Shown here: piece by piece, positions 5,223-45,112 of the stretch | How the letters are laid out: the number at the start of each line of letters is the position of its first letter | Numbering within the stretch: position 1 is the first letter of the stretch | Assembly: GCA_964585315.1 (NCBI GenBank) | Contig: CAZPDE010000001.1 | Location: 1 to 60,027 of the forward strand | Reading direction: 5' to 3' | Source: an uncultured Dehalococcoidales bacterium | Lineage (GTDB): Bacteria > Chloroflexota > Dehalococcoidia > GIF9 > AB-539-J10 | DNA: 60,027 nucleotides | The notes under the pieces: model-generated | What the model saw: only the letters and a program-made list of their open reading frames with translations | Told to the model about the DNA's origin: nothing | Database searches by the model: none | Translations under genes and position numbers: made by a program

Positions 5223-5225
5223 ATG

Positions 5226-5288
5226 GCGGGGATAAACCCCGCCACTACAATTATAACGCCTCCGTAGGGTCGGGGCTTGTCCCCGACC
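5226..5288. repeat. Family E: two GC-rich hairpins
   Basis: ggcgggg-ataaa-ccccgcc and ggtcgggg-cttgt-ccccgacc. Confidence 0.8.
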
Positions 5289-5293
5289 AGTTT

Positions 5294-5357
5294 CCCTCGT
5301 TCAATCTTGGGCCTTTTGGAGAGTCTTCAGCCCCTAATTAAATCCTAAACTCTAAAC
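5294..5357 (-). repeat. Family D copy D2 (head plus core)
   Basis: The reverse complement reads gtttagagtttaggatttaattaggggctgaagactctccaaaaggcccaagattgaacgaggg. Confidence 0.85.
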
Positions 5358-5513
5358 AAATATCAAAAATCAAAGATAAAAAATTAAAATTACAGATTAA
5401 AACTCAAAATTTTTAGCTTAGCTTTGTCATTTTGCATTTTGACTTTTGACCTTTGATTTTTAATTTTCTTTTAGTATTTCTAGTCAATTAGGCAGCTACA
5501 TTTTTGAAACAGC
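5358..5513. repeat. Family C AT-rich module block
   Basis: 5426-5513 (gtcattttgcattttgacttttgacctttgatttttaattttcttttagtatttctagtcaatta...) is near-identical to 19831-19911. Confidence 0.85.
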
Positions 5514-6359: not shown

Positions 6360-6452
6360 TCTTCTGGGAAGCTTGTATTTACAAAGCCTCTTTGCCCAAT
6401 AACAATGTTTATGCTAGCATAGTTAAGGTTGGGCATCAATTGGCAGCTATAA

Positions 6453-9107: not shown

Positions 9108-9112
9108 ACAAA

Positions 9113-9140
9113 GTCATTGCGAGCGAAGCGAAGCAATCTC
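9113..9140 (+). repeat. Family A copy A1, minimal 28-nt unit, alaS-ruvX intergenic
   Basis: gtcattgcgagcgaagcgaagcaatctc, with attgc/gcaat inverted termini. Confidence 0.85.
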
Positions 9141-9158
9141 ATAGGATTTAATCTTAAA

Positions 9159-9713
9159 ATGCGCAGTTTAGGGCTGGATGTTGGGGATAGAAGAACTGGG
9201 GTGGCGATAAGTGACCCTCAAGGGCTTTTAGCTATTCCCTTAACCATTATTGACAACAAAGACGAAGATGCCACCATAGTCGATATTATTAACCTCGCTG
9301 AGCAATACCAGGTAGAGCGTATTGTAATTGGTTTACCTTATTCATTAGATGGTAACCTTGGGCGACAAGCCAATAAGGTAACAGCTTTTGCTGAGAAGCT
9401 CCAAAATGTCATTGCGGTGAGCCGAAGCCCTGAGCCCTCCGCTCCTTGTCATTCTGAGGGAGCGAAGCGACTGAAGAATCTTGCTCAGGATAAACCATGT
9501 AGTGAGCGAAACGAATCTATCAGCGAAGGGAAAACGAAGCAATCTAGTCTTGTCGGACTCGATATACAACTATGGGATGAGCGGCTGTCTACCAAAGCTG
9601 CTGATAAGCTAATGCTTGAAGCTGGGACCAAGAAAAACAAAAGGAAACAGCACCGTGATGCCATAGCTGCTGCCTTTATCCTTCAGGGATTCCTTGACAG
9701 CTTGCAAGATTAA
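9159..9713 (+). CDS. ruvX: Holliday-junction resolvase-like nuclease RuvX/YqgF carrying an in-frame repeat insert
   Basis: MRSLGLDVGDRRTGVAISD ... LWDERLSTKAA ... AAAFILQGFL. The track ORF starts at 9117 inside a repeat unit, so ATG 9159 is the more likely start. Confidence 0.85.
   Translation: MRSLGLDVGDRRTGVAISDPQGLLAIPLTIIDNKDEDATIVDIINLAEQYQVERIVIGLPYSLDGNLGRQANKVTAFAEKLQNVIAVSRSPEPSAPCHSEGAKRLKNLAQDKPCSERNESISEGKTKQSSLVGLDIQLWDERLSTKAADKLMLEAGTKKNKRKQHRDAIAAAFILQGFLDSLQD
9408..9547 (+). repeat. Family A copy A2, inside ruvX, in frame
   Basis: gtcattgcggtgagccgaagccctgagcc...cattctgagggagcgaagcgactgaagaatcttgctcaggataaaccatgtagtgagcgaa...gaagcaatct. It encodes VIAVSRSPEPSAPCHSEGAKRLKNLAQDKPCSERNESISEGKTKQS. 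Confidence 0.9.
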
Positions 9714-13640: not shown

Positions 13641-15154
13641 TGGGGCAGTTTCGCTTTTTCACCGCTGGAGAATCCCACGGAAAGGGATTGGTAGCCATAG
13701 TCGAGGGAATGGTAGCCGACCTCCCTTTGGAAGCGGAATATATCGATAAAGAACTCAAACGCCGCCAGCAAGGCTATGGACGTGGTCTTCGCATGAAGAT
13801 AGAACAAGACGAAGTTCAAATCATCTCCGGGATTCGCTATGGATTTACTATAGGCAGCCCTATTGCTCTCTATATCCCCAATCGAGATTGGCAAAACTGG
13901 CAGGAGAAGCTAAGCGTTGCACCATTAGAGAAGGAAGCCGAGCCTGTGACCTACCCTCGCCCGGGACACGCCGACCTGGCGGGAGTAACCAAATATGGGC
14001 TTAAAGATATCAGACCCATAATAGAAAGAGCCAGCGCCCGGGAGACAGCCGCCAGGGTAGCTGCCGGAGCTGTAGCTAAAAGGTTTCTGGAAGAACTTGG
14101 CATTGCCATTCACAGCCACACTACAGCAATTGGACATGTTAGCTGCGAGCCCTTCCCTTCTTCTGTCATTGCGGTGAGCCGAAGCCCTGAGCCAAAGTTG
14201 CGAGCCGAAGGCGTGGCAATCAGCGAAGGGGAAGCGAAGCAATCTCATCTCGCTCAGGATAAACCATGTAGTGAGCGAAGCGAATCTATCCGCGAAGCAA
14301 CCTCTATAACCTGGCAGCAAGTTGAAGCCTCCCCGGTCCGCTGCGCTGATGCTAAGCTAGAAAAGGAGATGATAGCAGCCATTGATGAAGCTAAAGCCAA
14401 TGGAGATACCTTGGGTGGCATTTTCGAGGTAATCGCCAGTGGAGTGCCTATAGGCTTGGGCAGCCATGTTAGTTGGGAGCGTCGCCTCGATGGCAGAATT
14501 GCCCAGGCTATAATGAGCATCAATGCCGTGAAGGGGGTGGAGATTGGCTCAGGTTTTGCCTTGGCTGAACTTAAAGGCTCACAAGCTCATGATGTTATTG
14601 AACCCAATCCTCCCGCTGTCATTGCGGTGAGCCAAAGCACTGAACCCTTCGCTCCTTGTCATTCTGAGCGTGTGAGCCGAAGCCCTGAACAGAGTGAAGG
14701 GGAAGAATCTCATGGCGCTCAGGACAGGCTCCGTGAAGGGGAAGAATCTCGTCTCGCTCAGGGTAAACCATGTAGTGAGCGAAGTGAATCTATCCGCGAA
14801 GAGGAAGCGACGAAGCAACCTCCTCTCCCCTGGCGCCACGCCACTAATCGCGCTGGTGGCATTGAAGGTGGTATTAGCAATGGGGATGACATAGTAGTCA
14901 AGGCTGCGGTTAAGCCTATTGCTACTTTAGCCAATCCTTTACCTTCTATAGACCTTCGCAGTGGCGAAGCAGTTAAGGCTCATTACGAGCGCAGCGATAT
15001 TTGCGTTGTCCCCGCTGCTGGAGTGATTGCCGAAGCTATGCTAGCCATCATTTTAGCTGACGCCTGCCTGGAGAAATTCGGCGGAGATAACCTAAAAGAA
15101 ACCCTGGCAAACTACCATAATTACCTGAATAACACATCCCGCTTGTGCCTCTAA
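13640..15154 (+). CDS. aroC: Chorismate synthase with two in-frame repeat inserts
   Basis: FTAGESHGKGLVAIVEGMVA, RPGHADLAG, NRAGGIEGGISNGDDIV and ERSDICVVPAAGVIAEAM. It is 504 aa against roughly 360-400 aa for typical AroC. Confidence 0.95.
   Translation: MGQFRFFTAGESHGKGLVAIVEGMVADLPLEAEYIDKELKRRQQGYGRGLRMKIEQDEVQIISGIRYGFTIGSPIALYIPNRDWQNWQEKLSVAPLEKEAEPVTYPRPGHADLAGVTKYGLKDIRPIIERASARETAARVAAGAVAKRFLEELGIAIHSHTTAIGHVSCEPFPSSVIAVSRSPEPKLRAEGVAISEGEAKQSHLAQDKPCSERSESIREATSITWQQVEASPVRCADAKLEKEMIAAIDEAKANGDTLGGIFEVIASGVPIGLGSHVSWERRLDGRIAQAIMSINAVKGVEIGSGFALAELKGSQAHDVIEPNPPAVIAVSQSTEPFAPCHSERVSRSPEQSEGEESHGAQDRLREGEESRLAQGKPCSERSESIREEEATKQPPLPWRHATNRAGGIEGGISNGDDIVVKAAVKPIATLANPLPSIDLRSGEAVKAHYERSDICVVPAAGVIAEAMLAIILADACLEKFGGDNLKETLANYHNYLNNTSRLCL
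14165..14304 (+). repeat. Family A copy A3, inside aroC, in frame
   Basis: It encodes VIAVSRSPEPKLRAEGVAISEGEAKQSHLAQDKPCSERSESIREA. Confidence 0.9.
14618..14822 (+). repeat. Family A copy A4, inside aroC, in frame
   Basis: It encodes VIAVSQSTEPFAPCHSERVSRSPEQSEGEESHGAQDRLREGEESRLAQGKPCSERSESIREEEATKQ. Confidence 0.9.
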
Positions 15155-19662: not shown

Positions 19663-19915
19663 AAATCTCTTTGAAATGTAAAAGGCAAAAATAAAAATGC
19701 AAAATGACAGAGCCAAACTAAATAAAAGATTAAAATGCAAAATGAAAAAATACAAGGCAAAGGTAAAAATTTTTGAGTTTTGATTTGTAATTTTAAGTTT
19801 TGATTCTTGAATTTTGATTTTAGTTGAGTTGTCATTTTGACTTTTGACCTTTGATTTTTAATTTTCTTTTAGTATTTCTAATCAATTGGATAAATACATT
19901 TTTAAACAGCCTTTG
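19663..19915. repeat. Family C AT-rich module block
   Basis: It contains the cattttgcattttt unit (reverse complement of 19675-19765 matches 48990-49075) and the gtcattttgacttttgacctttgattttt unit. Confidence 0.85.
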
Positions 19916-22476: not shown

Positions 22477-22481
22477 CCCTC

Positions 22482-22715
22482 TTAGCTCTCGATAACCTCC
22501 TTGGTGCTTGGCACTCTGCCAATAATTCGCTCGTTAATGCGGGTAGCTGAATCTAAGGCTCGCCCTAAAGCTTTAAATAAGGCTTCAGCTTTGTGGTGGT
22601 CGTTAATGCCGCTGATTACTTTGGCATGGAGGTTAATTTTGGCTTCAGAGGCGAAAGAAACTAAGAAGTGGCGGACTAAATCTTCAGTCGTGTCCTGTAA
22701 GAATATTCTCGTCAT
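22482..22715 (-). pseudogene. Orphan 3' fragment of hisB (diverged duplicate of 24852-25085)
   Basis: The fragment reads [66 protein letters not shown]. Full HisB reads ...[66 protein letters not shown]. Confidence 0.85.
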
Positions 22716-24832: not shown

Positions 24833-24851
24833 TTTACCATCTTGCTCCCCC

Positions 24852-25442
24852 CTATCCCTCGATAATCTCCTTGGTGCTGGGGACTCTGCCCAGAATCCGC
24901 TCGTCAATGTGGGTGGCTGAGTCCAATGCTCGCCCTAAAGCTTTGAATAAGGCTTCGGCTTTGTGGTGGTCGTTGATGCCAACGAGCACTTTGGCATGGA
25001 GGTTGATTTTGGCTTCAGAGGCGAAGGAAACTAAGAAGTGACGGACTAAATCAGCACATAAGTCGCCTATATTAGCACTGCTGAAGGCTGCCTCGACTAC
25101 GCTATAAGCTCTACCACATATATCTACTGCTACCGCTGCTAGCGCTTCATCCATGGGCACGACAGCATGCGCCATTCGGGCGATGCCTCGTTTCTCGCCC
25201 AATGCCTGGTTGAAAGCCTTGCCCAATGAAATAGCTACATCCTCGACTATATGATGCTGGTCAGCGCCTGTAGCTGAGATTTTTATGTCGAATATCCCAT
25301 GCTGCGCTAGTTGAGTCAGAAAGTGGTCAAGCATCCTTATCCCGGTGGTAATCTCAAATTGACCACTGCCATCGATGTTTAGCTCTACTTTAACATTTGT
25401 CTCCGCAGTTTCACGAGTTACTGTTGCTTTTCTTTCCGCCAT
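24852..25442 (-). CDS. hisB: Imidazoleglycerol-phosphate dehydratase
   Basis: 196 aa with RETAETNVKVELNIDGSG, MLDHFL, DQHHIVEDVAI and [13 protein letters not shown]. Confidence 0.95.
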   Translation of the reverse strand: MAERKATVTRETAETNVKVELNIDGSGQFEITTGIRMLDHFLTQLAQHGIFDIKISATGADQHHIVEDVAISLGKAFNQALGEKRGIARMAHAVVPMDEALAAVAVDICGRAYSVVEAAFSSANIGDLCADLVRHFLVSFASEAKINLHAKVLVGINDHHKAEALFKALGRALDSATHIDERILGRVPSTKEIIEG

Positions 25443-25538: not shown

Positions 25539-25542
25539 GGTC

Positions 25543-25681
25543 GAGATTGCTCCACTTCCCATTCGCGGATAGATTCGCTTCGCTCACTACATGGTTTATC
25601 CTGAGCAAGATTCTTCAGTCGCTTCGCTCCCTCAGAATGACAAAGAGCGAGGGGCTCAGGGCTTCGGCTCACCGCAATGAC
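25543..25681 (-). repeat. Family A copy A5, hisB-hisC intergenic, full composite
   Basis: The reverse complement reads gtcattgcggtgagccgaagccctgagcccctcgctctttgtcattctgagggagcgaagcgactgaagaatcttgctcaggataaaccatgtagtgagcgaagcgaatctatccgcgaatgggaagtggagcaatctc. Confidence 0.9.
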
Positions 25682-25724
25682 AGATGGGGGCAGCTCGTAG
25701 CTAACAAAGAGACCTATCACTAGC

Positions 25725-27056
25725 TTAACATAGCTTCTTTAAAGCCTCAATTAAGGCATCGGTGTCCTCAGGCTTGCCCACACTTATTCGCAGGCATTCT
25801 TTTAATCGTGGACTATCAAAGTAACGAACGAAAATGCCTTTCTTTTGTAATTGGCGCCAGATTCCTTTGGCGTGAGATTCTTCCCCTTCACGAATAGATT
25901 CGCTTCGCTCACTACATGGTTTACCCTGAGCAAGATTCTTCAGTCGCTTCGTTCCCTCAGAATGGCAAGGAGCGAAGGACTCAGAATGACGGTGTAAGGA
26001 GCAAAGAATAAAATTAGCGCTGGAGGGATAGGGCTTTAGCCAACGAGATTGCTCCGCTTCCCTTTCGCGGATAGATTCGCTTCGCTCACTACATGGTTTA
26101 TCCTGAGCAAGATTCTTCAGTCGCTTCGCTCCCTCAGAATGACAAGGAGCGAGGGGCTCAGGGCTTCGGCTCACCGCAATGACATTTAGTTTAGCAAATA
26201 ACCGCTCTCGTTCAGCCACTATCTTTGCTACATTATGTCGAAGGTAATCTATATCTGTCAGAGAGGCTAGCACGGCTGTTTGCGCCGCTGCATTAATATT
26301 ATATGGTGGCTTAATTTTCATTAGATAGCTAGCGACCTCGGTAGGGAAAAAGCCATAGCCTATTCTTAAGCCAGCTAGCCCTGCCCATTTGCTGAAGGTG
26401 CGCAGCACTATCAGGTTGGGATAGTTAGGCACCAAGTTAGCCATAGTTACACCGCTAAACTCAAAGTACGCCTCATCCACCACCACGATTCTCCCAGTAT
26501 CTACAAGCTCTACAATCTCTTGTTCACTACTGGTGTTGCCTGTAGGATTGTTAGGCGAGGCAACGAAAATAACCTTTGTTTTTCCATTTAGTGCCCCCTT
26601 TATACCCTTAATATCAAGGGCGAAATCTTCGTTTCTAGGCACATCAACCACCTTGCCTCCGCAAAGCTCAGTGTTAAAGGGATACATGCCAAATGTTGGT
26701 GAACAGTTGATAACTTTATCCCCAGGGTTAAGGAAAAGTCGCAGAATAAGGTCAATTAGCTCGTCACTACCGCTGCCGCAAACAATGTGTTCAATGCTTA
26801 AGCCGGTGTAGTTCTCCAGAGCTTGCCTCAACTCCCTTTGTTCCGGGTCAGGATAGATATTGTAGTAAGGGTAACTGGCTAGAGCTTGATAGACCTTGGG
26901 GGAGCAACCATAAGGATTTTCATTGCCATCGAGCTTTATTATTTTCCCACCAGCCCGCTGCTCCAAAATCTCTATAGGCTCAATAGGGGTATAGCTTTTC
27001 ATAGCTGCTAGTTCAGTCCTTATCAGCTTTTTTATGTCCACTTCAACTAAAACCAA
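25725..27056 (-). CDS. hisC: Histidinol-phosphate aminotransferase with two in-frame repeat inserts
   Basis: KLDGNENPYG, SPNNPTGN, RTFSKWAGLAGLRIGY and PSSANFIL. It is 443 aa against roughly 350-370 aa typical. Confidence 0.92.
   Translation of the reverse strand: MVLVEVDIKKLIRTELAAMKSYTPIEPIEILEQRAGGKIIKLDGNENPYGCSPKVYQALASYPYYNIYPDPEQRELRQALENYTGLSIEHIVCGSGSDELIDLILRLFLNPGDKVINCSPTFGMYPFNTELCGGKVVDVPRNEDFALDIKGIKGALNGKTKVIFVASPNNPTGNTSSEQEIVELVDTGRIVVVDEAYFEFSGVTMANLVPNYPNLIVLRTFSKWAGLAGLRIGYGFFPTEVASYLMKIKPPYNINAAAQTAVLASLTDIDYLRHNVAKIVAERERLFAKLNVIAVSRSPEPLAPCHSEGAKRLKNLAQDKPCSERSESIREREAEQSRWLKPYPSSANFILCSLHRHSESFAPCHSEGTKRLKNLAQGKPCSERSESIREGEESHAKGIWRQLQKKGIFVRYFDSPRLKECLRISVGKPEDTDALIEALKKLC
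25874..25990 (-). repeat. Family A copy A6, inside hisC, in frame
   Basis: It encodes HSESFAPCHSEGTKRLKNLAQGKPCSERSESIREGEESH. Confidence 0.9.
26045..26183 (-). repeat. Family A copy A7, inside hisC, in frame
   Basis: It encodes VIAVSRSPEPLAPCHSEGAKRLKNLAQDKPCSERSESIREREAEQS. Confidence 0.9.
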
Positions 27057-27140
27057 AAGTTAAAAATAAAAAGTCAAAATGACAAGTCAAGATGCAAAAC
27101 TTTTTGTTTTTGCTTTGTATTTTTGCCTTTTAATACTTCA
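27057..27140. repeat. Family C fragment, hisD-hisC intergenic
   Basis: aaaaataaaaagtcaaaatgacaagtcaagatgcaaaac...gctttgtatttttgcctttt. Confidence 0.7.
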
Positions 27141-27158
27141 TTCAGCTCTCATCCATTT

Positions 27159-28691
27159 TTATGGAGATGGTTTAGATTGCTTCGCTTCCCCTTCACGGAT
27201 AGATTCGCTTTGCTCACTACATGGTTTATCCTGAGCGCAGTGAGATTCTTCGCGGAGTTTACCCTGAACGGTATGAGATTCTTCGCTACGCTCAGAATGA
27301 CAGGAAGTGAAGGGCTCAGAATGACAAGAAGCGAAGGGTTCAGTGCTTCGGCTAACCGCAATGACAGAGGGGCTCGCAATGACACGGAGGGCTATTGCTT
27401 GAGCGTGAGCATCCAACCCTTCAGCTCTGGCTATTACCATAGCTGCCTGGCTTAGTTCTTGCATAGCAGGCTCATCCAAAGCGACGATATTGCTAACCTT
27501 TAGGAAATCAGCAACACCCAAAGGAGAGCTGAAGCGAGCGCTACCCTGGGTAGGCAAGACATGGCTGGGACCAGCAACATAATCACCCAAAACCACGGGT
27601 GAATTTTCACCAATGAAGATACAGCCAGCGTTACAAATTCGGGGAACCAAAGAAGAGGCATTGGCTACCATGAGGGAAAGATGCTCCGGGGCAAAAAGGT
27701 TCACCAATTCGATTGCTTCATCAGTGTTACGGACAATTACAATCATTCCGGTATCAATAGCCTTTCTAGCAATGGAATGCCGCTTTAATTTTCCCAGTTG
27801 CCTCTCAATTTCCTTATCCACCCGATTGGCTAATTCAGATGAGGTAGTGACTAAAATCACTGATGCCAAGGAGTCATGCTCAGCTTGAGCTAAAAGGTCA
27901 GCAGCACAAAGGGTAGGGTTGGCTTTCCCATCGGCTACGAGCATTAGCTCACTCGGACCTTCGAGACCATCAACGCCTACTGCGCCATAAACCATTTTCT
28001 TAGCTAAGGTTACAAAGATGTTGCCAGGACCACAAATTTTATCCACTCTGGGTATTGACTCAGTGCCAAAAGCTAAAGCAGCAATAGCCTGAGCGCCACC
28101 AACTTTGAAAATACGGTTGACCTCAGCGATGCCAGCAGCTACTAAGGTAGGCGCAGGGATGCCTCCATCTTTGCCAGGCGGTGAAGCCACAATGATTTCC
28201 TTTACACCTGCTACCTTGGCCGGTATAGCCGTCATCAACACTGTGGATGGGTAAGCAGCAGTGCCACCGGGAACATATAGACCCACCCTATCTAAGGGAC
28301 GAATCTGTTGTCCCAGGTGCTTGTCAATGGGAAACACGCCAGTCTTATGTCCACAAGCAAGGTGGAAATCTTGTATTCTTTTGGCAGCCAGTTCCAGCGC
28401 CGAGACGAGTTCCTTGTCCACTTTGTCGTAGGCTGCGGCGACTTCCTGCTTACTTACTTCAAGGGAATCAAGCGCGACGCCATCCAGTTTCTTGGTGTAA
28501 TCAAAGAGGGCTTCATCGCCTTTACGCCGAACTTCACTTATGATAAGGTCAACTGTCTGTTGAGGAGAAAGCTCCTTCCCGAAAGTTTGCTTTATTTGTG
28601 CTGCCACCCCTGACGAGGCGGCAAAAGATTCCAGAAAGTCTTTCCTGGCCAACAATTGTTTTGCTTTAGCAAATCCTTCGACTCGTATCAT
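27159..28691 (-). CDS. hisD: Histidinol dehydrogenase with a repeat-derived C-terminal extension
   Basis: LYVPGGTAAYPSTVLM, AQAEHD and HVLPTQGSARFSSPLGV. The canonical end ...AHAQAIALRV is followed by about 75 aa of repeat-encoded sequence. Confidence 0.93.
   Translation of the reverse strand: MIRVEGFAKAKQLLARKDFLESFAASSGVAAQIKQTFGKELSPQQTVDLIISEVRRKGDEALFDYTKKLDGVALDSLEVSKQEVAAAYDKVDKELVSALELAAKRIQDFHLACGHKTGVFPIDKHLGQQIRPLDRVGLYVPGGTAAYPSTVLMTAIPAKVAGVKEIIVASPPGKDGGIPAPTLVAAGIAEVNRIFKVGGAQAIAALAFGTESIPRVDKICGPGNIFVTLAKKMVYGAVGVDGLEGPSELMLVADGKANPTLCAADLLAQAEHDSLASVILVTTSSELANRVDKEIERQLGKLKRHSIARKAIDTGMIVIVRNTDEAIELVNLFAPEHLSLMVANASSLVPRICNAGCIFIGENSPVVLGDYVAGPSHVLPTQGSARFSSPLGVADFLKVSNIVALDEPAMQELSQAAMVIARAEGLDAHAQAIALRVIASPSVIAVSRSTEPFASCHSEPFTSCHSERSEESHTVQGKLREESHCAQDKPCSEQSESIREGEAKQSKPSP
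27173..27383 (-). repeat. Family A copy A8, forms the 3' end of the hisD ORF
   Basis: It encodes (R)VIASPSVIAVSRSTEPFASCHSEPFTSCHSERSEESHTVQGKLREESHCAQDKPCSEQSESIREGEAKQS. Confidence 0.9.
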
Positions 28692-30154
28692 GATAACCCC
28701 GACTGAAATGCCTGAGTAAGAAATTCAATCCTCCCTTTTTTATCATGGGAGTCAAGACTATCTTTGTTGCCAATTAGACAAGCTGTGGACTGGAAAAGCA
28801 CATCGATAATCTTCAAGTTGTGCTGTGCCAATGTCTTTCCTGTTTGAGCATTATCTATAAGCAAATCGGCATCTTCAGGCAAAAAAGCCTCGCTTGCCCC
28901 CCAGGTTGGTATTAGCTTATATGGGCTAATATGATTATCTCGAAGATATTTATCGGCGATATTTATGTACTCCGAGGCTACCCTAAGAGGAGCAAACTCG
29001 CCATTTTGAACAAGCGACCTGAGTTCAGCAATATTGGCAACGGGTATATCCGGACTTACTGCGGCTACAATTTTTACCTCTCCAAAGCCGAGAACCAGCA
29101 ACTTTGCCACCGGACTTGAAGGAAAACGATAGAGGTGTTCCAGCAGCCAATCCTCACCAGTCACAGCTAAGTCGAAATTGCCATTGGCTACCTGAAGAGG
29201 CATATCTTGAGGTCTGATGACTTTTATGCCCAGCCAATCTAAATTGATAGAAGGGCGGCGATTCAGCACCTTGCCAGAATACCCCTGGAGATTGAGTCCG
29301 GCTCGCTGCAAAAATTGCGAAGTAGGTGAGAGCTGATGTCCATCGGGCAATGCCAGCTTGATCTCCTTTGCCTGCCACTGAGATTGCTGCATCACTTCCC
29401 CTTCCTCTTCACCGAGGTCCGAGGTCATATGACAGACATTGGACATAGGACATTGGACATAGGACTGGCTTGTGCTAACACTGCTTAAACAAGTCAGTAC
29501 TTGACTCAGATTTTTACTCTCTAAGCTTTCCCGATTGGCAATCAGAAAAGTAGTAACAGGAAATAAGCTCATTAAAGGAATCACGCCTTGAGCCTTCAGG
29601 TCACTTTCATTCCCTCCCCACAATACAGCCAGGTCGGCATTCTCCGGGGGATAAACTTCAGCAGCTCCCCACACAGGGAAAATCTTGAACCTTCTCATTC
29701 TATTTTTTAAGGCGAATGCCTCAGCCAAATTAGGATACTCGCTTACTATGCGCCAATCATTTTGTCTAGTTAATAACTCATCGAGCCTGTAGAATCCCGC
29801 TTGATTGCTGGCTACCACATACACACTGCCCTCACCGTAATTTAGACTTGATATTTTTACCAGAGCGCCCGCAGGATATTTCACTATAAATTCTTCGATC
29901 CAATCCAAACCGCAAATACCCAGGTCATAATTCCCTATAGCTACCTGTATGGGAATATCTTTTTCTTGAAATATCTTGGCTGAAAGATAAGGAAATCTCA
30001 CCGACCGAAGGCGATATTGTCTTGTTTTGCTACTATAACGGCTAAAGCCCAGGTCTATCTCACCAAGCAAATTGGCTGTAGGCGATAGAAACCTACCTTT
30101 AGGCAAAGCAAGCTTGACAGGTTGATTTTCCATTTTGTTAGCTATGAGGAGCAT
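28688..30154 (-). CDS. hisG: ATP phosphoribosyltransferase, tandem fusion of two short-form HisG-like halves
   Basis: The N-half has LALPKGRF...DLGICGLDWIEE...EYPNLA but a degenerate PRPP loop (DLAVLWGGNESDL). The C-half has LALPDGHQ...DLAVTGEDWLLE...DLLIDNAQTGKTLAQHNL. ATGA overlaps hisD. Confidence 0.85.
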   Translation of the reverse strand: MLLIANKMENQPVKLALPKGRFLSPTANLLGEIDLGFSRYSSKTRQYRLRSVRFPYLSAKIFQEKDIPIQVAIGNYDLGICGLDWIEEFIVKYPAGALVKISSLNYGEGSVYVVASNQAGFYRLDELLTRQNDWRIVSEYPNLAEAFALKNRMRRFKIFPVWGAAEVYPPENADLAVLWGGNESDLKAQGVIPLMSLFPVTTFLIANRESLESKNLSQVLTCLSSVSTSQSYVQCPMSNVCHMTSDLGEEEGEVMQQSQWQAKEIKLALPDGHQLSPTSQFLQRAGLNLQGYSGKVLNRRPSINLDWLGIKVIRPQDMPLQVANGNFDLAVTGEDWLLEHLYRFPSSPVAKLLVLGFGEVKIVAAVSPDIPVANIAELRSLVQNGEFAPLRVASEYINIADKYLRDNHISPYKLIPTWGASEAFLPEDADLLIDNAQTGKTLAQHNLKIIDVLFQSTACLIGNKDSLDSHDKKGRIEFLTQAFQSGLS

Positions 30155-34039: not shown

Positions 34040-34291
34040 ATGGCATTAAAGCCCAAGGTTTTGGGCATTGCCGGCAGCCCTCGCCGTGGCGGCGATACTA
34101 ACTTTTTGCTGCAAGAGGCGATGCTTGGCGCCGGTAGGCAAGGAGCTGAAACAAAGATAGTCATCATCGATGAGCTTAATATAGCTCCTTGCCGCCATTG
34201 TGATAAGCGCTTGCCCACAGGCAAATGCGCTGTAGTTGCCCAATCTACTGGGCAATTTTGCCTGATTCATCAGGCAACTACAAAGATTTGG
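34040..34291 (+). pseudogene. N-terminal remnant of an NADPH-dependent FMN reductase / iron-sulfur flavoprotein
   Basis: [65 protein letters not shown] matches only the first third of the family. Homology stops where a family-D repeat begins. Confidence 0.55.
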
Positions 34292-34348
34292 GGGGTGAAG
34301 ACTCTGCAAAATGCCCGAATTTGAACGAAAAAACAAAATTAAACAGCC
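34290..34348 (+). repeat. Family D copy D4, directly upstream of mutase paralog 1 start
   Basis: ggggggtgaagactctgcaaaatgcccgaatttgaacgaaaaaacaaaattaaacagcc, followed by tacttctaagagggaggtcgagtGTG. Confidence 0.85.
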
Positions 34349-34371
34349 TACTTCTAAGAGGGAGGTCGAGT

Positions 34372-36027
34372 GTGCCAAGTAAAGCTAAGCAAGAATGGCG
34401 TGAAGCTACATTATCTCCGATATTAAAGCGTTCCCCTGAACGACAGGATAAGTTTGAAACCACTTCGGGCATAGAGTTGGATACTGTTTATACCCCCGAA
34501 GATATGCCAAACTTTGATTATGCTACAGAGTTAGGACACCCCGGAGAGTACCCCTTTACTCGGGGAGTCCAACCCAATATGTATCGAGGCAAAATATGGA
34601 CGATACGTCAGTATGCTGGGTTTGGCTCTGCTGAGGAGACTAATCAGCGTTACCGCTACCTCCTAGAGCAAGGGCAAACTGGGCTAAGCGTGGCATTCGA
34701 CTTGCCCACGCAGATTGGCTATGATTCCGACCACCCCCTAGCCAGAGGTGAAGTAGGCAAAGTTGGCGTCGCCATAGATAGCCTTGGGGACATGGAGACC
34801 CTTTTCCATGGCATTCCTTTGGATAAGGTAAGCACATCAATGACCATAAACGCCCCTGCTCCTATTCTTCTCGCTATGTATATTGCTCTAGGCAAAAAAC
34901 AAGGAATTGACTCAGCCAAGTTAAGCGGCACTATTCAAAATGACATACTTAAGGAATATATTGCCCGAGGCACTTATATCTTTCCCCCTCGCCCATCAAT
35001 GAGACTGACCACTGATATATTTGCTTATTGCGCCAAACATGTCCCTCGCTGGAATACTATTAGCATCAGTGGTTATCATATACGAGAAGCGGGCTCTACT
35101 GCGGCTCAAGAAATTGGCTTCACGCTGGCTAATGGCATCACTTATGTCCAGTCAACTATCGATGCTGGGCTTGATGTGGATGCCTTTGCCCCCAGACTAT
35201 CGTTCTTTTTCAATAGCCATGTAAACTTCTTTGATGAAGTTGCCAAATTCAGAGCAGCGCGGCGTCTTTGGGCAAAGATAATGGCAGAAAGATTTGGAGC
35301 TAAAGACCCACGCTCCTTGATGCTTCGCTTCCATACTCAAACTGCAGGATGCAGCCTTACTGCACCACAGCCACATAACAATATCGTGAGGACAACTGTA
35401 GAAGCCTTAGCAGCCGTTTTGGGAGGCACCCAATCACTACACACTAACTCTTTCGACGAAGCTTATGCGCCACCCTCTGAGGAAGCAGTGACAGTCGCTG
35501 TGCGAACTCAACAAATCCTAGCCCACGAAAGTAGTGTTGCTGATGTTGTCGATCCCTTCGGTGGCTCTTACTATGTAGAATCTCTCACTAACAGGCTGGA
35601 AAAGGAAGCCAGCGAATACATCGCTAAAATCGATAGGCTCGGCGGCGCTGTAGCTGCTATCGAACAAGGGTATCAACAAAGAGAAATTCAGGATGCTTCT
35701 TACCGCTACCAAAAGGAAATCGAAAATGGTAAACGCACTGTGGTAGGGGTAAACAAATTTATTTCCCCCTATCCTAAAATAACTGGCCTGCTTCGAGTTA
35801 ACCAGGGGGTAGAAAGCAAACAAAAGGAGAGAACAGCACGAGTTAAGAAACAAAGAGATAATAGTAAAGTGAATCAAACGCTTAAGAGGTTAAAAGAGAT
35901 AGCTCAAAACAGGGATAATACAATGCCAGTCTTTCTTGAATGCGTAGAAGCCTATGCCACTTTAGGCGAGATGTGTGATGTGTTGCGTGAAGTTTTTGGC
36001 GTCCAGAAGGAATTTTTGGTTTTTTAG
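34372..36027 (+). CDS. Methylmalonyl-CoA mutase catalytic (large) subunit, paralog 1
   Basis: [64 protein letters not shown] start at 34372 after gagggagg parallels the paralog 2 N-terminus. The track start 34225 lies in the upstream pseudogene/repeat. Confidence 0.9.
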
Positions 36028-36180: not shown

Positions 36181-37833
36181 ATGGCGAGCAAAAACAAGCA
36201 GAAATGGCGTGAAACCACTTTAGCCTCAACATTAAAGCGTTCTCCCGAGCGACAGGATAAATTTGAAACAAGTTCAAATATAGAAGTTGATACTGTCTAT
36301 GCTCCTGAGGACTTAGCAAACTTTGATTGCTTTAGAGATTTGGGCTATCCCGGTGAATATCCCTTTACTCGAGGCGTCCAACCCAATATGTATCGAGGCA
36401 AAATATGGACGATACGTCAGTATGCTGGTTTTGGCTCTGCTGAGGAGACTAACCAACGTTACCGCTACCTCTTAGAGCAAGGACAAACTGGCTTAAGTGT
36501 AGCTTTCGACTTACCCACACAGATTGGTTACGACTCAGATCACCCTTTAGCCAGAGGCGAAGTGGGCAAAGTCGGCGTTGCTGTGGATAGCCTCCGAGAT
36601 ATGGAGATTATATTTGATGGCATTCCTTTAGACAAGATTAGCACCTCGATGACCATAAATGCCCCATGTGCTCCAATTCTCGCCATGTATATTGCCGTAG
36701 CTAAAAAACAAGGAGTTGAACTAGCTAAATTGGATGGCACTACTCAAAATGATGTTTTAAAAGAGTATATTGCTCGGGGCACTTATATTTTCCCGCCCAA
36801 GCCTTCGATACGCTTAATCGCCGATACAGCAGCATACTGCAGCAAATATCTTCCTCGCTGGAATTACATTAATATTGCTGGCTATCACATACGAGAGGCG
36901 GGTTCTACAGCGGCTCAGGAAGTTGGCTTTACATTAGCTGATGCCATTGAGTATGTCCAAGCAATCATTGACACTGGGCTGGATGTAGATTCTTTTGCCC
37001 CAAGAATATCCTGGATTTTCCAAACTCATAACAACTTCTTTGAAGAAATAGCCAAGCTAAGAGTATTGCGGCGTCTCTGGGCGAAGATAATGAGAGAGAG
37101 GTTCAAGGCTAAGAATCCTCGCTCGTGGATGTTCCGCACCCATGTCCAAACTGGGGGCGTAACCCTTACTAGTCAACAGCCTATGAATAATATTGTCAGA
37201 GCTACAGTTCAGGCATTAGCCGCAGTGTTGGGAGGTGTGCAGTCTCTGGCAAGCTCTTGCTATGATGAAGGACATTGCATTCCTACCGAGGATGCAGTTC
37301 GACAATCGCTACGTCTGCAGCAAATCCTAGCCTATGAAAGCGGTGTTGCTGATGTCGTTGACCCCCTCGGCGGTTCCTACTACATGGAATCCCTCACCAA
37401 TAAACTAGAGGAAGAGGCAAGCAAATATATTGCTAAAATTGATAGCCTTGGTGGCGCTGCATCTGCTATCGAACAAGGATATCAGCAAAGGGAAATTCAG
37501 GAGGCTTCCTATCGCTACCAGCAAGAAATTGAAAGTGGTAAGCGTGTTATAGTCGGGGTTAATAAATTTATCTCGCCTTCTCCTAAAATAACCTTATCGA
37601 GAGTGGGACCAGAGGTAGAGATAAATCAAAAGAAAAAACTGGCTCAGCTTAAGAAGGAGAGGGATGATGCCAAGGTAAGCCACGCACTTAAGCGCTTAGA
37701 GGATGTAGCCCTGGACAAAGATAATACTATGCCTGCCTTCCTTGAATGTGTAGAGTCCTATGTTACTCTAGGCGAGATGTGCAATGTACTGCGTAAAGTT
37801 TTTGGCGCCCAAAAGGAATTCTTAGCTTTCTAA
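36181..37833 (+). CDS. Methylmalonyl-CoA mutase-like catalytic subunit, paralog 2 (diverged)
   Basis: It has the same N-terminal blocks as paralog 1. [18 protein letters not shown] is replaced by SLASSCYDEGHCIPTEDA. Confidence 0.88.
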   Translation: MASKNKQKWRETTLASTLKRSPERQDKFETSSNIEVDTVYAPEDLANFDCFRDLGYPGEYPFTRGVQPNMYRGKIWTIRQYAGFGSAEETNQRYRYLLEQGQTGLSVAFDLPTQIGYDSDHPLARGEVGKVGVAVDSLRDMEIIFDGIPLDKISTSMTINAPCAPILAMYIAVAKKQGVELAKLDGTTQNDVLKEYIARGTYIFPPKPSIRLIADTAAYCSKYLPRWNYINIAGYHIREAGSTAAQEVGFTLADAIEYVQAIIDTGLDVDSFAPRISWIFQTHNNFFEEIAKLRVLRRLWAKIMRERFKAKNPRSWMFRTHVQTGGVTLTSQQPMNNIVRATVQALAAVLGGVQSLASSCYDEGHCIPTEDAVRQSLRLQQILAYESGVADVVDPLGGSYYMESLTNKLEEEASKYIAKIDSLGGAASAIEQGYQQREIQEASYRYQQEIESGKRVIVGVNKFISPSPKITLSRVGPEVEINQKKKLAQLKKERDDAKVSHALKRLEDVALDKDNTMPAFLECVESYVTLGEMCNVLRKVFGAQKEFLAF

Positions 37834-39096: not shown

Positions 39097-40875
39097 ATGG
39101 AGACTAATCTAGCTGATGGTCAACTCTTAAAAGAGATATTTGCATCAGGTACTACCTGGCTGGAGAAAAGCGTTCCTGATATCAATGCTATAAATGTTTT
39201 CCCTGTCCCCGATGGTGATACAGGAACCAATATGCTGCTTACTATGCGCTCCGCCATGGAAGAGGCAACTGGAAACTCAGATAGCGACGCCTCCTCAGTA
39301 GTCAAATCACTAGCTTATGGCGCTTTAATGGGGGCTCGGGGTAATTCGGGAGTAATCCTATCTCAATTCTGGCGCGGCTTAGCTAGGGGGTTGGAGGACA
39401 AGAGTTCCTTTGACGGTAAAGATTTCGCCAAGGCATTAGCTGAAGCATCACAAGCTGCCTATGAAGGAATTATCCACCCTGTAGAAGGCACTATGTTAAC
39501 AGTGCTTAAAGATGCCGCCGAAGCTGCTGATAAGGCTGCCAAAGCCTGTCCTGAGCAAGATTCTTCGGTCGCGGAGCCTGCCCTGAGCGGTGAGATTCCT
39601 CGCGGAGTTTACCCTGAGCAAGATTCTTCGGTCGCTTTGCTCCCTCAGAATGACATGAAACGAAGGGCTCAGAATGACATGAAGCGAAGGATTGATTCTG
39701 AAAGCTTGGTTTCGGTGCTAGAGGCTGCAGTAGAGGCAGCCAGGGATTCAGTAGCTCGAACACCTACCCTGTTAGCGGTATTAAAGGAGGCCGGTGTAGT
39801 GGACGCTGGTGGGCAAGGCATTTATGTTCTGCTGGATGGCGCTCTTCGCCATCTTAAAGGGGAACAGGGTAAGATGCAGTATCGGCGACCAAGGCTGGTT
39901 GCTGCTGATTTGCCCCTGACCCCAAAGATGGCTCCCATGGGCACTGAGGTTGAAGTACCTTACGGATATTGCACCAATTTTGTGTTGAAAGGGCAAAGTC
40001 TTGACTTGAAAAAGATCAAGGGAGACCTAAAGAAGAAAGGACAATCTCTAATTGTTACTGGTGATAAATCCTTAGTTCGAGTCCACATTCATAGCTTCGA
40101 GCCCGGCGAGATCATCAACTATGCTGCACATCTAGGCACTTTGCATCAGATAAATATCAATAATATGGATGACCAATATGTCGAATTTATTAAGATGCAA
40201 AAAGAAAGGTTGCCCACGGCGGACATCGCCATAGTAGCAGTCGCCTCAGGGGACGGCTTTTTTGAGGTATTTAATAGCTTGGGCACGGCAATCATTGTCC
40301 CTGGTGGCCAAACAATGAACCCTAGCGTTCGTCAGCTAGTTCAAGCTGTGGAATCAGCACCTTCAAATAATGTTATTCTGCTGCCTAATAACAAAAATAT
40401 CATCCTTACCGCTTCCCAAGTTGAGCCTCTAACTTCCAAGAAGGTAAAGGTAGTCCCTACCAAAACTGTCCCTCAGGGCATAGCAGCATTTCTTGCCTTC
40501 AGTTACGAGATGAATCTAGAGGAAAATGCGCAAGCTATGGAAGAGACAATAACCGCAATACAGACTATAGAAATTACTAAAGCAGTGCGCAAGACGCAGC
40601 TCAATGGCTTGAAGATAAAAAGGGGGCAATTCATTGCTATTCTAAATGATGGGAGCTTAATAGCTAGTGGCAAAAACATATCGGAAGTTATTTTTGAAGC
40701 TCTACCAGAAGCAGATATTGATAGTGCTGCGGTGATGACTATCTACTACGGTGCTGAAACTCAAGCTAGCGAAGCTGAAAGCATAGCTTGGAAAATTCAG
40801 GATAAATATTCTATACAGGTTGAAATAGTTCGCGGGGGGCAACCATATTATAATTATATAATCTCGCTGGAATAA
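39097..40875 (+). CDS. DAK2-domain protein (YloV-like) with an in-frame antisense repeat insert
   Basis: INVFPVPDGDTGTNMLLT, GARGNSGVILSQ, GVVDAGGQG. It is 592 aa. Confidence 0.87.
   Translation: METNLADGQLLKEIFASGTTWLEKSVPDINAINVFPVPDGDTGTNMLLTMRSAMEEATGNSDSDASSVVKSLAYGALMGARGNSGVILSQFWRGLARGLEDKSSFDGKDFAKALAEASQAAYEGIIHPVEGTMLTVLKDAAEAADKAAKACPEQDSSVAEPALSGEIPRGVYPEQDSSVALLPQNDMKRRAQNDMKRRIDSESLVSVLEAAVEAARDSVARTPTLLAVLKEAGVVDAGGQGIYVLLDGALRHLKGEQGKMQYRRPRLVAADLPLTPKMAPMGTEVEVPYGYCTNFVLKGQSLDLKKIKGDLKKKGQSLIVTGDKSLVRVHIHSFEPGEIINYAAHLGTLHQININNMDDQYVEFIKMQKERLPTADIAIVAVASGDGFFEVFNSLGTAIIVPGGQTMNPSVRQLVQAVESAPSNNVILLPNNKNIILTASQVEPLTSKKVKVVPTKTVPQGIAAFLAFSYEMNLEENAQAMEETITAIQTIEITKAVRKTQLNGLKIKRGQFIAILNDGSLIASGKNISEVIFEALPEADIDSAAVMTIYYGAETQASEAESIAWKIQDKYSIQVEIVRGGQPYYNYIISLE
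39548..39697 (-). repeat. Family A copy A10, inside the DAK2 gene, antisense orientation, in frame
   Basis: cctgagcaagattcttcggtcgc occurs twice, followed by ctccctcagaatgaca. It encodes CPEQDSSVAEPALSGEIPRGVYPEQDSSVALLPQNDMKRRAQNDMKRR. Confidence 0.88.
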
Positions 40876-44852: not shown

Positions 44853-45112
44853 GCAATGACTGAAATAAAAATGCAAAATGACAAAGCAAAATATGACAAA
44901 TCCTAAGCGCGAAATTCGAAATACTAAACAATATCGAAGCACTAATGACCAAAATCCAAAACTCAAAACAATCAGAGTTTTGGTATTTGAGTTTTGGATT
45001 TGTTTAGGATTTATAATTTAGATATTAGAAATTGAAAAAAAGGAGATATTTTTGAATTTTGATTTGTCATTTTGATGTTTTACCTTTGATTTTTAATATT
45101 TGTTAGGATTTA
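44853..45112. repeat. Family C AT-rich module block incl. a perfect 15-bp AT-rich hairpin (44953-45000), recG-argS intergenic
   Basis: aatccaaaactcaaa ... tttgagttttggatt. The part at 45040-45110 is the reverse complement of the block at 48895-48985. Confidence 0.8.

What the first reader, a model, noticed from the sequence alone, without database searches (positions are those of the whole stretch)
25874..26183. HisC carries two separate repeat inserts flanking its conserved PS.ANF block
In gene sense the sequence reads ...RERLFAKLN [46-aa insert A7] WLKPYPSSANFILCSLHR [39-aa insert A6] AKGIWRQLQKKGIFVRYF... Only 18 native residues separate the two inserts, and those residues are a conserved HisC motif. 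The inserts differ in their start modules (gtcattgcgg versus gtcattctgag), so they are independent events in the same loop region. A further full copy (A5) lies just downstream in the hisB-hisC spacer.
Basis: partly seen in the sequence, partly recalled or inferred. Interest (0 to 1): 0.6.

Follow-up and report, generated by a model that had tools for sequence, protein, structure and literature searches.

The report
Two repeat inserts inside HisC
An uncultured cold-seep Dehalococcoidia bacterium has two copies of a small "junk DNA" repeat sitting in frame inside its histidine-pathway enzyme HisC; the gene still looks functional, so this is a new example of a known oddity (selfish repeats translated as floppy protein loops), not a new kind of system.

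Summary
hisC (25725-27041/27056, minus strand) carries two in-frame, stop-free copies of a modular GC-rich repeat in its C-terminal small domain. They are separated by a conserved 16-residue beta-hairpin (WLKPYPSSANFILCSL). A third copy, 98% identical to insert 1, lies in the hisC-hisB spacer.

Compared with insert-free orthologues, insert 1 puts 48 residues in place of 4, and insert 2 puts 41 in place of 4. The native part shows no decay: dN/dS is 0.07-0.13, and the PLP lysine and the three substrate arginines are kept. AlphaFold gives both inserts pLDDT below 50.

The two inserts have different histories. Site 2 is occupied in about 60% of 103-114 relatives, by several unrelated repeat types. 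Site 1 is occupied in only four. Both inserts share a recently copied interior inside different outer shells.

The same repeat is in frame in RuvX, AroC, RecG, FakA and the HisD tail. My reading is selfish REP/RPE-like DNA that survives where it lands in permissive loops.

The parts
25725..27041 (-). hisC coding sequence (histidinol-phosphate aminotransferase). The mechanical ORF extends to a TTG at 27056. The GTG at 27041 gives MDIKKLIR as in relatives. Residue numbers in this report count from 27056.
   Evidence: TIGR01141 328 bits against cutoff 276.55. Best PDB match is HISN6 8bj4, E 1.5e-85. Syntenic hisZ-hisG-hisD-hisC-hisB order as in relatives.
26043..26186 (-). Module order: X-shell start, S, inner Y hairpin, R, G, X-shell end.
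   Evidence: 97.9% identical to A5 and 94% to the ruvX copy. Empty sites seen in L002, L007 and L006. pLDDT below 50 for residues 297-337. Module order.
25995..26042 (-). Native beta-hairpin W339-L354 (WLKPYPSSANFILCSL) between the two inserts.
   Evidence: Aligns to 8bj4 residues 295-310. Predicted strands 340-343 and 349-354. N348, F349 and C352 are invariant in 115 sequences.
25872..25994 (-). Module order: outer Y shell (CGTC-tagged), inner Y hairpin, R, G, Y-shell end.
   Evidence: 92% identical to A7 over 105 nt. The orthologous insert in L001 lacks the 30-nt G module. pLDDT below 50 for residues 357-391.
25542..25682 (-). A5: a full intergenic copy of the composite repeat in the hisC-hisB spacer. 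It is absent in relatives L001 and L002, where hisC and hisB overlap.
27162..27383 (-). C-terminal tail of HisD, about 74 aa, built from nested copies of the same modules (X( X( S Y( Y( Y) R Y) R G ...).
   Evidence: The HisD profile ends at residue 436-437 of 510. Module order. HisD is 440 aa in L002 and 449 aa in L001.
24852..25442 (-). hisB (imidazoleglycerol-phosphate dehydratase), the downstream operon partner.
   Evidence: NF002116 288 bits.

Best explanation
This is the organism's working, operon-encoded hisC. Two surface loops of its C-terminal small domain have been colonised by a family of short, modular, hairpin-containing DNA repeats: TGTC/CGTC-tagged, REP-like and nested inside one another. 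The repeats are not removed. They are transcribed and translated as hydrophilic, probably disordered, loops of 48 and 41 residues.

They persist for three reasons. First, the composite has one open forward frame and module lengths that are multiples of three. Second, only copies that land in frame in tolerant loops survive selection on an essential enzyme. Third, the two loops, and in relatives the C-terminus, are permissive, so related lineages carry various repeat types at the same places.

The outer shells are old, because they are shared with relatives. The interiors are young. They were recently copied or homogenised from other copies in the same genome, such as A5 only 360 nt downstream, by nested insertion or gene conversion.

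Shown here: the anatomy, the frame, conservation of the native part, occupancy in relatives, and the spread of the same repeat to unrelated genes. Inferred: translation of the inserts, retained activity, neutrality, and the copying mechanism, whose enzyme is unknown.
For: - **Frame.** Both inserts are in frame and stop-free. The composite is open in only one forward and one reverse frame.
- **Same family in other genes.** It is in frame in RuvX, AroC (twice), RecG (twice), FakA (reverse orientation) and the HisD tail. The insert-1 peptide also occurs in Mur ligase, FtsY, a MiaB-like radical-SAM protein, DUF2851 and guanylate kinase of close relatives.
- **Native HisC under purifying selection.** dN/dS is 0.13 against L001 and 0.07 against L002. 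It is 0.13 for the 64 native codons around the inserts. The inserts give about 0.56.
- **Key residues kept.** K223, R231, R411 and R423 align to E. coli K214, R222, R322 and R335. They are invariant in 115 relatives.
- **Structure and composition.** AF2 keeps the native helix, two strands and helix around the inserts and gives both inserts pLDDT below 50. The inserts are hydrophilic: GRAVY -1.1 and -1.5, with 70-80% polar or Pro/Gly residues.
- **Relatives.** Site 2 is empty in 45 of 114 and holds inserts of +7 to +50 aa in 69, of several unrelated types. At least 13 state changes are needed on the tree, 5 of them forced by well-supported branches. Site 1 is occupied in 4.
- **Independent assembly.** Relative L001, about 84% identical in DNA, has inserts at both sites with the same shells but different interiors.
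- **Recent copying.** A7 and A5 are 98% identical although dS to L001 is 0.55.
- **No splicing signal.** There is no Rfam family and no intein or intron signal.
Against: - There is no transcript or peptide evidence. No RNA run holds the locus.
- Logan unitigs of three cold-seep runs are too fragmented to confirm the junctions around the 16-aa block at 99% identity.
- The only identical contig found (L128) is the same assembly.
- A second sample's assembly of the same organism (L004, protein P0002) lacks the 502 nt between A7 and A5 and would truncate HisC. This is either an assembler collapse or a real deletion allele.
- The inserts replace about 12 nt of loop codons rather than simply adding DNA, and no target-site duplication is seen. 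The insertion mechanism is therefore not explained.
- By topology, site 2 lies at the C-terminal end of beta-2. That is the same sheet edge as the substrate-binding R411 if beta-2 and beta-3 are parallel (inference). An effect on activity cannot be excluded.
- AF2 models are only moderate (mean pLDDT 66-67).
Confidence: 0.75

Rival explanations
1. The inserts have been co-opted. As flexible, charged loops on the small domain they would provide something useful, such as solubility, a tether or partner-binding site, regulation of domain closure, or a Cys/His metal site formed by the two CH...C motifs. That would explain why site 2 is kept occupied in most relatives.
For: Site 2 is occupied in about 60% of relatives across several clades. 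Each insert carries C-H-x15-C. The two insertion points flank one beta-hairpin, so the inserts should emerge side by side (inference).
Against: - Site-2 content is not conserved. Lengths run from +7 to +50 aa, several unrelated repeat types occur, and near-identical genomes (97.8% DNA identity) differ by a whole-module swap.
- 45 of 114 relatives do without any insert.
- dN/dS of the inserts is about 0.56, against 0.13 for the native part.
- The Cys and His residues are by-products of the conserved TGTC and TGTAG tags read in this frame.
- The identical peptide sits in unrelated enzymes.
Confidence: 0.1
2. This hisC copy is a decaying or non-functional gene, and histidinol-phosphate transamination is done by another aminotransferase, an insert-free paralogue elsewhere in the genome.
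For: There are two large inserts in a small domain that carries substrate-binding arginines. A deletion form lacking the C-terminal 105 residues exists in another assembly of the same organism. A paralogue search was impossible.
Against: - dN/dS is 0.07-0.13 over 350 native codons, including the C-terminal part.
- All invariant and catalytic residues are kept.
- The frame is open over 443 codons.
- The gene sits in the conserved hisZ-G-D-C-B operon position, as in relatives.
- Relative L001 keeps both inserts with an intact frame after dS of about 0.55.
- There is no second hisC-like sequence in the 60-kb window.
Confidence: 0.05
3. The inserts are removed before the mature protein is made, by RNA excision, translational bypassing or protein splicing.
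For: The elements contain local hairpins. No expression data contradict it.
Against: - Every genic copy examined keeps the frame and has no stop, which would be unnecessary if the copies were removed.
- Nothing in the window reached Rfam gathering thresholds.
- There is no intein domain, and the junction residues are wrong: the insert starts with Val and is followed by Trp or Ala, not Cys, Ser or Thr.
- Whole-element fold energies are no better than shuffles, with z from -1.15 to +1.13.
- Boundaries and lengths vary freely among relatives.
Confidence: 0.04
4. The two-insert arrangement is an assembly artefact, a chimeric path through dispersed repeats in a short-read metagenome.
For: The repeats are 125-141 nt, close to read length. 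Another assembly of the same organism takes a different path, an A7/A5 collapse. Unitigs do not bridge the junctions at 99% identity.
Against: - A different organism (L001) assembled independently has inserts at exactly the same two sites.
- Dozens of relatives from JGI, ENA, NCBI and Logan assemblies have site-2 inserts.
- The segment between the repeats is the genuine orthologous HisC C-terminus under purifying selection, and it is in frame on both sides.
Confidence: 0.03

Closest known systems
Rickettsia palindromic elements (RPE; Ogata et al. 2000, as summarised in PMC3184786 and PMC3733652)
   Same: These are repeats of about 100-150 nt found both between genes and in frame inside many unrelated housekeeping genes. 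They add a peptide without destroying the host protein, and some genes are hit twice. They are read as selfish DNA that survives in permissive sites.
   Different: The lineage differs: free-living, anaerobic, cold-seep Dehalococcoidia rather than an obligate intracellular alphaproteobacterium. The element here is a nested mosaic of 24-35-nt modules rather than one long palindrome, and its whole-element fold is no better than shuffles. Sequence relatedness to RPEs was not tested.
CGTC/TGTC-tagged REP superfamily, including intragenic REPs (Di Nocera, De Gregorio & Rocco 2013, PMC3733652)
   Same: The modules start with an unpaired CGTC or TGTC tag followed by a stem that begins with A-T pairs (CGTC-ATTCT...AGAAT-CTC; TGTC-ATTGC...GCAAT-CTC). 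They have a short 3' tail and no transposase is known. Intragenic copies encode 20-30 aa, and some ORFs are hit twice. The Y shell occurs in many phyla.
   Different: Stems here are only about 5 bp contiguous, against the 8-9 bp defined for the superfamily. Loops are 12 to more than 100 nt because further modules sit inside them, against 4-5 nt. The tail is CTC rather than CCA. No sequence of the paper's families could be matched, because the figures are not held and the supplements gave no hit.
NTS/SRM hairpin repeats recognised by Ssn GIY-YIG single-strand nucleases (Chenal et al. 2025, PMC11893778)
   Same: These are oriented hairpin repeats beginning CGTCAT..., present in hundreds of copies across phyla. 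The paper proposes them as possibly mobile or domesticated units.
   Different: The published SRM pattern has no match in the window, and no GIY-YIG-motif ORF is present in the 60 kb. NTS repeats are rarely inside genes: the paper reports 2% in N. meningitidis.
BIMEs (mosaic clusters of REP units) and MITEs inserted in ORFs (Nezha, ERIC/RU elements; reviewed in PMC3184786 and PMC10969869)
   Same: The repeats show mosaic combinations of short palindromic units, and repeat ORFs are fused in frame to chromosomal ORFs or extend their 3' ends, as in the HisD tail here.
   Different: There is no target-site duplication and there are no long terminal inverted repeats. The modules are nested rather than tandem. 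The location is predominantly intragenic in this window.

Membership tests
HisC, histidinol-phosphate transaminase (TIGR01141) | Whole-protein score above the curated cutoff of the equivalog model | tested here: met
   328.3 bits against cutoff 276.55. The match is split into two stretches by the inserts.
HisC, histidinol-phosphate transaminase (TIGR01141) | PLP-binding lysine and substrate-binding arginines (E. coli K214, R222, R322, R335; residue roles are from my own knowledge of the 1FG3/1GEX structures) | tested here: met
   K223, R231, R411 and R423 align to them and are invariant in 115 relatives.
HisC, histidinol-phosphate transaminase (TIGR01141) | his-operon context | tested here: met
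   The order hisZ-like, hisG, hisD, hisC, hisB is the same as in L001, L002 and L005.
HisC, histidinol-phosphate transaminase (TIGR01141) | Enzyme activity with the inserts present | not testable with these tools
   Needs expression and assay, or complementation.
CGTC/TGTC-tagged REPs (PMC3733652) | Unpaired terminal CGTC (or TGTC/CCTC) tag | tested here: met
   A6 starts caCCGTCATTCTGAG, the inner module is cTTGTCATTCTGAG, and A7 starts aaTGTCATTGCGG.
CGTC/TGTC-tagged REPs (PMC3733652) | Stem of 8-9 bp whose first two pairs are A-T | tested here: not met
   Stems begin with AT (ATTCT/AGAAT, ATTGC/GCAAT) but only about 5 bp are contiguous.
CGTC/TGTC-tagged REPs (PMC3733652) | Loop of 4-5 nt and a 3-nt tail near CCA | tested here: not met
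   The smallest module seen (L005 site 1) has a 12-nt interior. Here the interiors are about 25 to over 100 nt and hold further modules. The tail is CTC.
CGTC/TGTC-tagged REPs (PMC3733652) | No dedicated flanking transposase | not testable with these tools
No GIY-YIG motif is present in the window.
Ssn-related motifs (SRM; PMC11893778) | Match to HGTCWYN(0-2)YYVSBRHN(0-5)WNVSBRGN(0-2)RNCYNB | tested here: not met
   0 matches in the window on either strand. Shuffles averaged 0.34.
Rickettsia palindromic elements (RPE) | In-frame presence in unrelated protein genes as well as between genes | tested here: met
Rickettsia palindromic elements (RPE) | Whole element folds as one long palindrome; sequence homology to RPE-1 to RPE-8 | tested here: inconclusive
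   Fold z-scores run from -1.15 to +1.13, so no exceptional whole-element hairpin. Homology to RPE sequences was not tested because none were at hand.
MITE | Terminal inverted repeats plus target-site duplication at filled versus empty sites | tested here: not met
   Filled and empty comparisons (the window, L001 and L005 against L002, L006 and L007) show about 12 nt replaced and no direct repeat.
Intein or self-splicing intron | Intein splicing residues or domains; group I/II intron RNA structure | tested here: not met
   Pfam finds only aminotransferase-type PLP-enzyme domains and no intein domain. Rfam gathering gives nothing. Junction residues are Val...Arg|Trp and His...His|Ala.

The most novel reading that the evidence does not exclude
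The repeats may not be passive survivors of random transposition. They could be spread by a dedicated, still unknown, hairpin-directed DNA process that does two things: it places small modules (24-35 nt, mostly multiples of three) into the loops of existing modules, giving nested shells, and it repeatedly rewrites the same few protein loops by replacing about 12 nt without a target-site duplication.

That would be a 'coding-adapted' class of mobile DNA shared across Dehalococcoidia, with shells that occur in many phyla. HisC sites 1 and 2 would then be preferred landing pads and not merely permissive loops.
Probability: 0.15. Interest if true: 0.7.

Novelty: new variant of a known kind. Interest (0 to 1): 0.4.

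Why it matters
- **A natural tolerance map for HisC.** The data show which positions of a fold-type-I aminotransferase small domain accept 7-50 extra residues: the helix-to-beta-1 loop, the beta-2-to-helix loop and the C-terminus. This is useful for protein engineering and for understanding how loops evolve.
- **Annotation.** These repeats split HMM matches, inflate protein lengths and create false hypothetical ORFs.
- **Assembly.** One assembly of this same organism lost the last 105 residues of HisC through a collapse, or a real deletion, between two repeat copies. Metabolic reconstructions of Dehalococcoidia MAGs, including histidine auxotrophy calls, can be misled by this.
- **Biology of the repeats.** In-frame colonisation of housekeeping genes by REP-like DNA, classically a Rickettsia curiosity, appears to be common and evolutionarily dynamic in a free-living, environmentally important lineage. 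I found no paper describing it there.

Tried and rejected
- **Whole-genome search.** The window itself holds no second hisC.
- **RNA evidence.** No RNA run holds the locus.
- **Read-level check of the junctions.** Logan unitigs of three cold-seep runs break at the repeats. At 99% identity nothing covers 25958-26062. At 90% identity the repeat bins reach depths of 1000-9700 against about 10 for unique sequence, which sums many organisms. This is uninformative about the arrangement.
- **Rfam.** Nothing in the window reached gathering thresholds.
- **Whole-element RNA folding.** Not better than shuffles, so I dropped the idea of one long palindrome.
- **SRM and Ssn.** The published SRM pattern has no hit and there is no GIY-YIG motif ORF in the window.
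- **Di Nocera 2013 text and supplements.** No hits for these module sequences or peptides.
- **Full-text search for the module sequences.** It returned only unrelated primers and vectors.
- **The HISN6 structure paper.** It is not in the library, so distances from the insertion points to the active site were not obtained. AF2 coordinates are not exposed.
- **Exact-protein look-up of the 443-aa ORF.** It found nothing. The 425-aa version found only the same contig.
- **Inversion hypothesis.** I considered that the L005/L006 module difference at site 2 was an inversion. The reverse complement, compared by eye, does not match, so it is a replacement.
Full report
**What is there.**
The minus-strand ORF 25725..27056 encodes 443 aa. 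It is histidinol-phosphate aminotransferase: TIGR01141 scores 328 bits against a cutoff of 276.55, and the match is split into two stretches. The gene sits in a hisZ-like, hisG, hisD, hisC, hisB cluster. Relatives start MDIKKLIR, so the real start is probably the GTG at 27041. Residue numbers below count from 27056.

The order is KLN, a 47-aa repeat-derived stretch, WLKPYPSSANFILCSL, a 41-aa repeat-derived stretch, then AKGIWRQLQKKGIFVRYF.

**More than chance.**
- Insert 1 (A7, 26044-26184) is 97.9% identical over 141 nt to the copy in the hisC-hisB spacer (A5, 25542-25682).
- It is 94% identical to a copy inside ruvX.
- Insert 2 (A6) matches A7 at 92% over 105 nt, with E values from 1e-37 to 1e-76.
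- The start motif GTCATTSYGNG occurs 17 times in 60 kb against 0.22 expected. The end motif GAAGMAATCT occurs 8 times against 0.55.

**Exact boundaries.**
I fetched the DNA of orthologues. L002, from an NCBI MAG, and L007 have neither insert. L001 has both.
- At site 1 the empty alleles read cta-AGAGAGCTAGAT-tgg (KL-RELD-W). The window has cta-AAT GTCATTGCGG...GAGCAATCTCGT-tgg.
- At site 2 the empty alleles read tgc-TCTGTCCTTAATGGCAAA-gca (C-SVLNGK-A). The window has tgc-TCCTTACACCGTCATTCTGAG...GAAGAATCTCAC-gcc.

So 48 residues stand where relatives have 4 (net +44), and 41 where relatives have 4 (net +37). No target-site duplication is visible. About 12 nt of loop codons are replaced rather than split.

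**Where the inserts lie in the fold.**
Against plant HISN6 (8bj4), query residues 292, 339, 354 and 399 align to chain residues 292, 295, 310 and 319. Two AlphaFold runs, with 31 and 115 aligned sequences, gave mean pLDDT 66-67. Both give the same layout:
- a long helix, 269-295;
- insert 1, with pLDDT below 50 for 297-337;
- strands 340-343 and 349-354;
- insert 2, with pLDDT below 50 for 357-391;
- a helix, 395-405.

Foldseek's best hits are HisC structures. The inserts therefore occupy two different loops on either side of a beta-hairpin in the small domain. Because the start of beta-1 and the end of beta-2 are neighbours in a hairpin, the two inserts should emerge side by side; this is an inference. 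Both are strongly hydrophilic, with GRAVY -1.06 and -1.49 against -0.04 for the native part.

**Is the gene decaying?**
No.
- Over 350 native codons dN/dS is 0.13 against L001 (dS 0.56), 0.07 against L002 and 0.17 against L007.
- The 64 native codons around and after the inserts give 0.13.
- The insert codons give about 0.56, from only 59 codons, so this value is noisy.
- The PLP lysine and the arginines that bind substrate in E. coli HisC align to K223, R231, R411 and R423. The roles of K214, R222, R322 and R335 are from my own knowledge of the 1FG3/1GEX structures. All four are invariant in 115 relatives.
- The window has no second hisC.

**Relatives with zero, one or two inserts.**
The 120 best database relatives are Dehalococcoidia or Chloroflexota MAG proteins, 59-77% identical over the best local alignment and 71-84% over aligned columns.
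- At site 2, 45 of 114 scorable proteins have the empty 17-residue form. The other 69 carry inserts of +7 to +50 residues.
- The site-2 content is very diverse. There are Y-type CHSEG..KNL modules, X-type VIASEAKQS modules, the same module in another frame (SLRG..RSNL), and an unrelated LPSPFEGEGLGEG repeat.
- On a tree built from native columns only, site-2 occupancy needs at least 13 changes. Five of these are forced by well-supported branches.
- Site 1 is occupied in only four proteins: the window, P0001, P0013 and P0033.
- A repeat-derived C-terminal tail (LPVIAS...KQS) occurs in 30 of 103, with 16 changes.

The left edge of the Y shell at site 2 is at the same codon in distant clades. A single old colonisation followed by reworking and recombination is therefore possible for that repeat type. 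The unrelated types at the same loop argue for repeated hits or a strong survivorship filter.

**Old shells, young interiors.**
A module parse gives these orders:
- A7 = X( S Y( Y) R G X)
- A6 = Y( Y( Y) R G Y)
- the FakA copy = Y( Y( Y) R Y)

The interiors are shared and the outer shells differ. L001 has the same shells at both sites. Its site-1 interior is a different module, however. That module is 96.5% identical to the window's AroC insert, although the flanking genes are only about 84% identical. L001's site-2 insert lacks the 30-nt G module. L001 and L002 also lack the spacer copy A5, because hisC and hisB overlap there.

A7 and A5 differ at 3 of 141 positions, yet dS to L001 is 0.55. 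Copying or gene conversion among copies in this genome is therefore far more recent than the split from L001.

A near-identical genome pair, L005 and L006 (97.8% DNA identity), differs in two ways. One has the 33-nt site-1 insert and the other does not, with a cluster of substitutions just upstream that suggests an imported patch. They also differ by a swap of an equal-length module at site 2. Turnover is fast.

**The wider phenomenon.**
In this window the same family is in frame in:
- RuvX;
- chorismate synthase, at two sites;
- RecG, at two sites;
- a FakA/DAK2 protein, in reverse orientation;
- the 74-aa tail of HisD.

The insert-1 peptide is also found in Mur ligase, FtsY, a MiaB-like radical-SAM enzyme, DUF2851 and guanylate kinase of close relatives. 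The full composite is open in only one forward and one reverse frame. This explains why genic copies share a frame, and it means roughly a third of random hits would keep an ORF open.

The Y shell (GTCATTCTGAG..CGAAGCGA..GAAGAATCT) occurs in more than 120 stretches from many phyla. The composite with the G module is confined to three cold-seep Dehalococcoidia or Chloroflexota MAGs among species representatives.

**Mechanism and rivals.**
The best reading is selfish, REP/RPE-like DNA translated as disordered loops in permissive positions of a functional enzyme (confidence 0.75).
- **Removal at the RNA or protein level is unlikely.** All genic copies keep the frame and lack stops. Rfam finds nothing. 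There are no intein features. The elements do not fold better than shuffles.
- **Co-option is possible but unsupported.** Content is not conserved and many relatives lack the inserts.
- **Assembly artefact is unlikely.** An independently assembled relative and dozens of others share the sites.
- **A caution on assembly.** A second sample's assembly of this organism (L004, 99.96% identical) lacks exactly the 502 nt between A7 and A5, and its gene call (P0002, 331 aa) is truncated. This is either a collapse or a real deletion allele.

**Comparison with what is known.**
In-frame repeats in housekeeping genes are established for three groups: Rickettsia RPEs, GTAG/CGTC-tagged REPs (including ORFs hit twice), and several MITEs (PMC3184786, PMC3733652).
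- The modules here carry the CGTC/TGTC tag and AT-first stems. They fail the defined stem length of 8-9 bp and loop length of 4-5 nt.
- They do not match the SRM pattern of the Ssn nuclease system (PMC11893778). No GIY-YIG motif ORF is in the window.
- I found no paper describing such repeats in Dehalococcoidia.
- Earlier notes of this scan report similar cases in other Dehalococcoidia genomes. I used them as leads only.

**Verdict.**
This is a new variant, nested and mosaic and in a new lineage, of a known kind of in-frame selfish repeat. Interest is moderate at 0.4. The hot-spot turnover at two HisC loops and the insertion without target-site duplication, by replacement, are the parts most worth following up.

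Noticed in passing
L004 (ENA ERZ4220366 NODE_1650) versus window 25683-26184: Another sample's assembly of the same organism (99.96-99.98% identical) lacks exactly the 502 nt between repeat copies A7 and A5. hisC is then called as a 331-aa protein (P0002) without its C-terminal 105 residues. This is either an assembler collapse across a 141-nt repeat or a real recombination-deletion allele.
   Followed up: partly
window 27162-27383 (-): HisD carries a C-terminal extension of about 74 aa made only of nested copies of the same repeat modules. HisD is 440 aa in L002, 449 aa in L001 and 510 aa here.
   Followed up: partly
window 27049-27149; also 5359-5508, 19676-19906, 44863-45101, 48928-49075: A second, AT-rich repeat family (units like AAATAAAAATGCAAAATGACA / TTGTCATTTTGACTTTTGA) fills intergenic spacers. 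These include the 102-nt hisD-hisC spacer (27% GC), where hisD and hisC overlap in relative L002. It could be a promoter-like element or another mobile repeat.
   Followed up: no
window 22477-22682 versus 24847-25052: The last ~66 codons of hisB are duplicated (87% identity) about 2.4 kb downstream. They bracket a small island of short ORFs, including a DUF5678 protein, plus a nucleotidyltransferase (Polbeta/NTP_transf_2) called in the same interval of L004. This looks like the scar of an element that integrated into the 3' end of hisB.
   Followed up: partly
window 28688-30154 (-): The hisG ORF is 488 aa and matches the 183-position HisG model in two stretches. Relatives have 475-513 aa, so this clade seems to have a doubled or fused HisG.
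   Followed up: no
window 39549-39678 (in the FakA/DAK2 gene 39097-40875, +) and 42415-42509, 43613-43759 (in recG 42111-44852, +): The same repeat family is translated from the opposite strand inside FakA (…PEQDSSVALLPQNDMKRR…). It also occurs at two separate sites of RecG, one of them inside the helicase core between the DEAD and Helicase_C domains.
   Followed up: partly
L005 versus L006 (JGI 3300048653 and ENA ERZ27247683), hisC 3' part: Two genomes 97.8% identical in DNA differ in two ways. One has a 33-nt site-1 insert and the other does not, with a cluster of substitutions just upstream. They also differ by the exchange of a site-2 module of about 63-66 nt for an unrelated one of equal length.
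   Followed up: partly
L001 4858-4942 versus window 14164-14248: The site-1 insert of the relative's hisC is 96.5% identical to the window's aroC insert. The orthologous genes around them are only about 84% identical, so repeat copies are more alike between genomes than the genes are.
   Followed up: no
window 34225-36027 and 36181-37833 (+): Two adjacent genes of 600 and 550 aa are tandem paralogues, with 72-79% DNA identity over several blocks at an offset of about 1809 nt. I did not examine their function.
   Followed up: no
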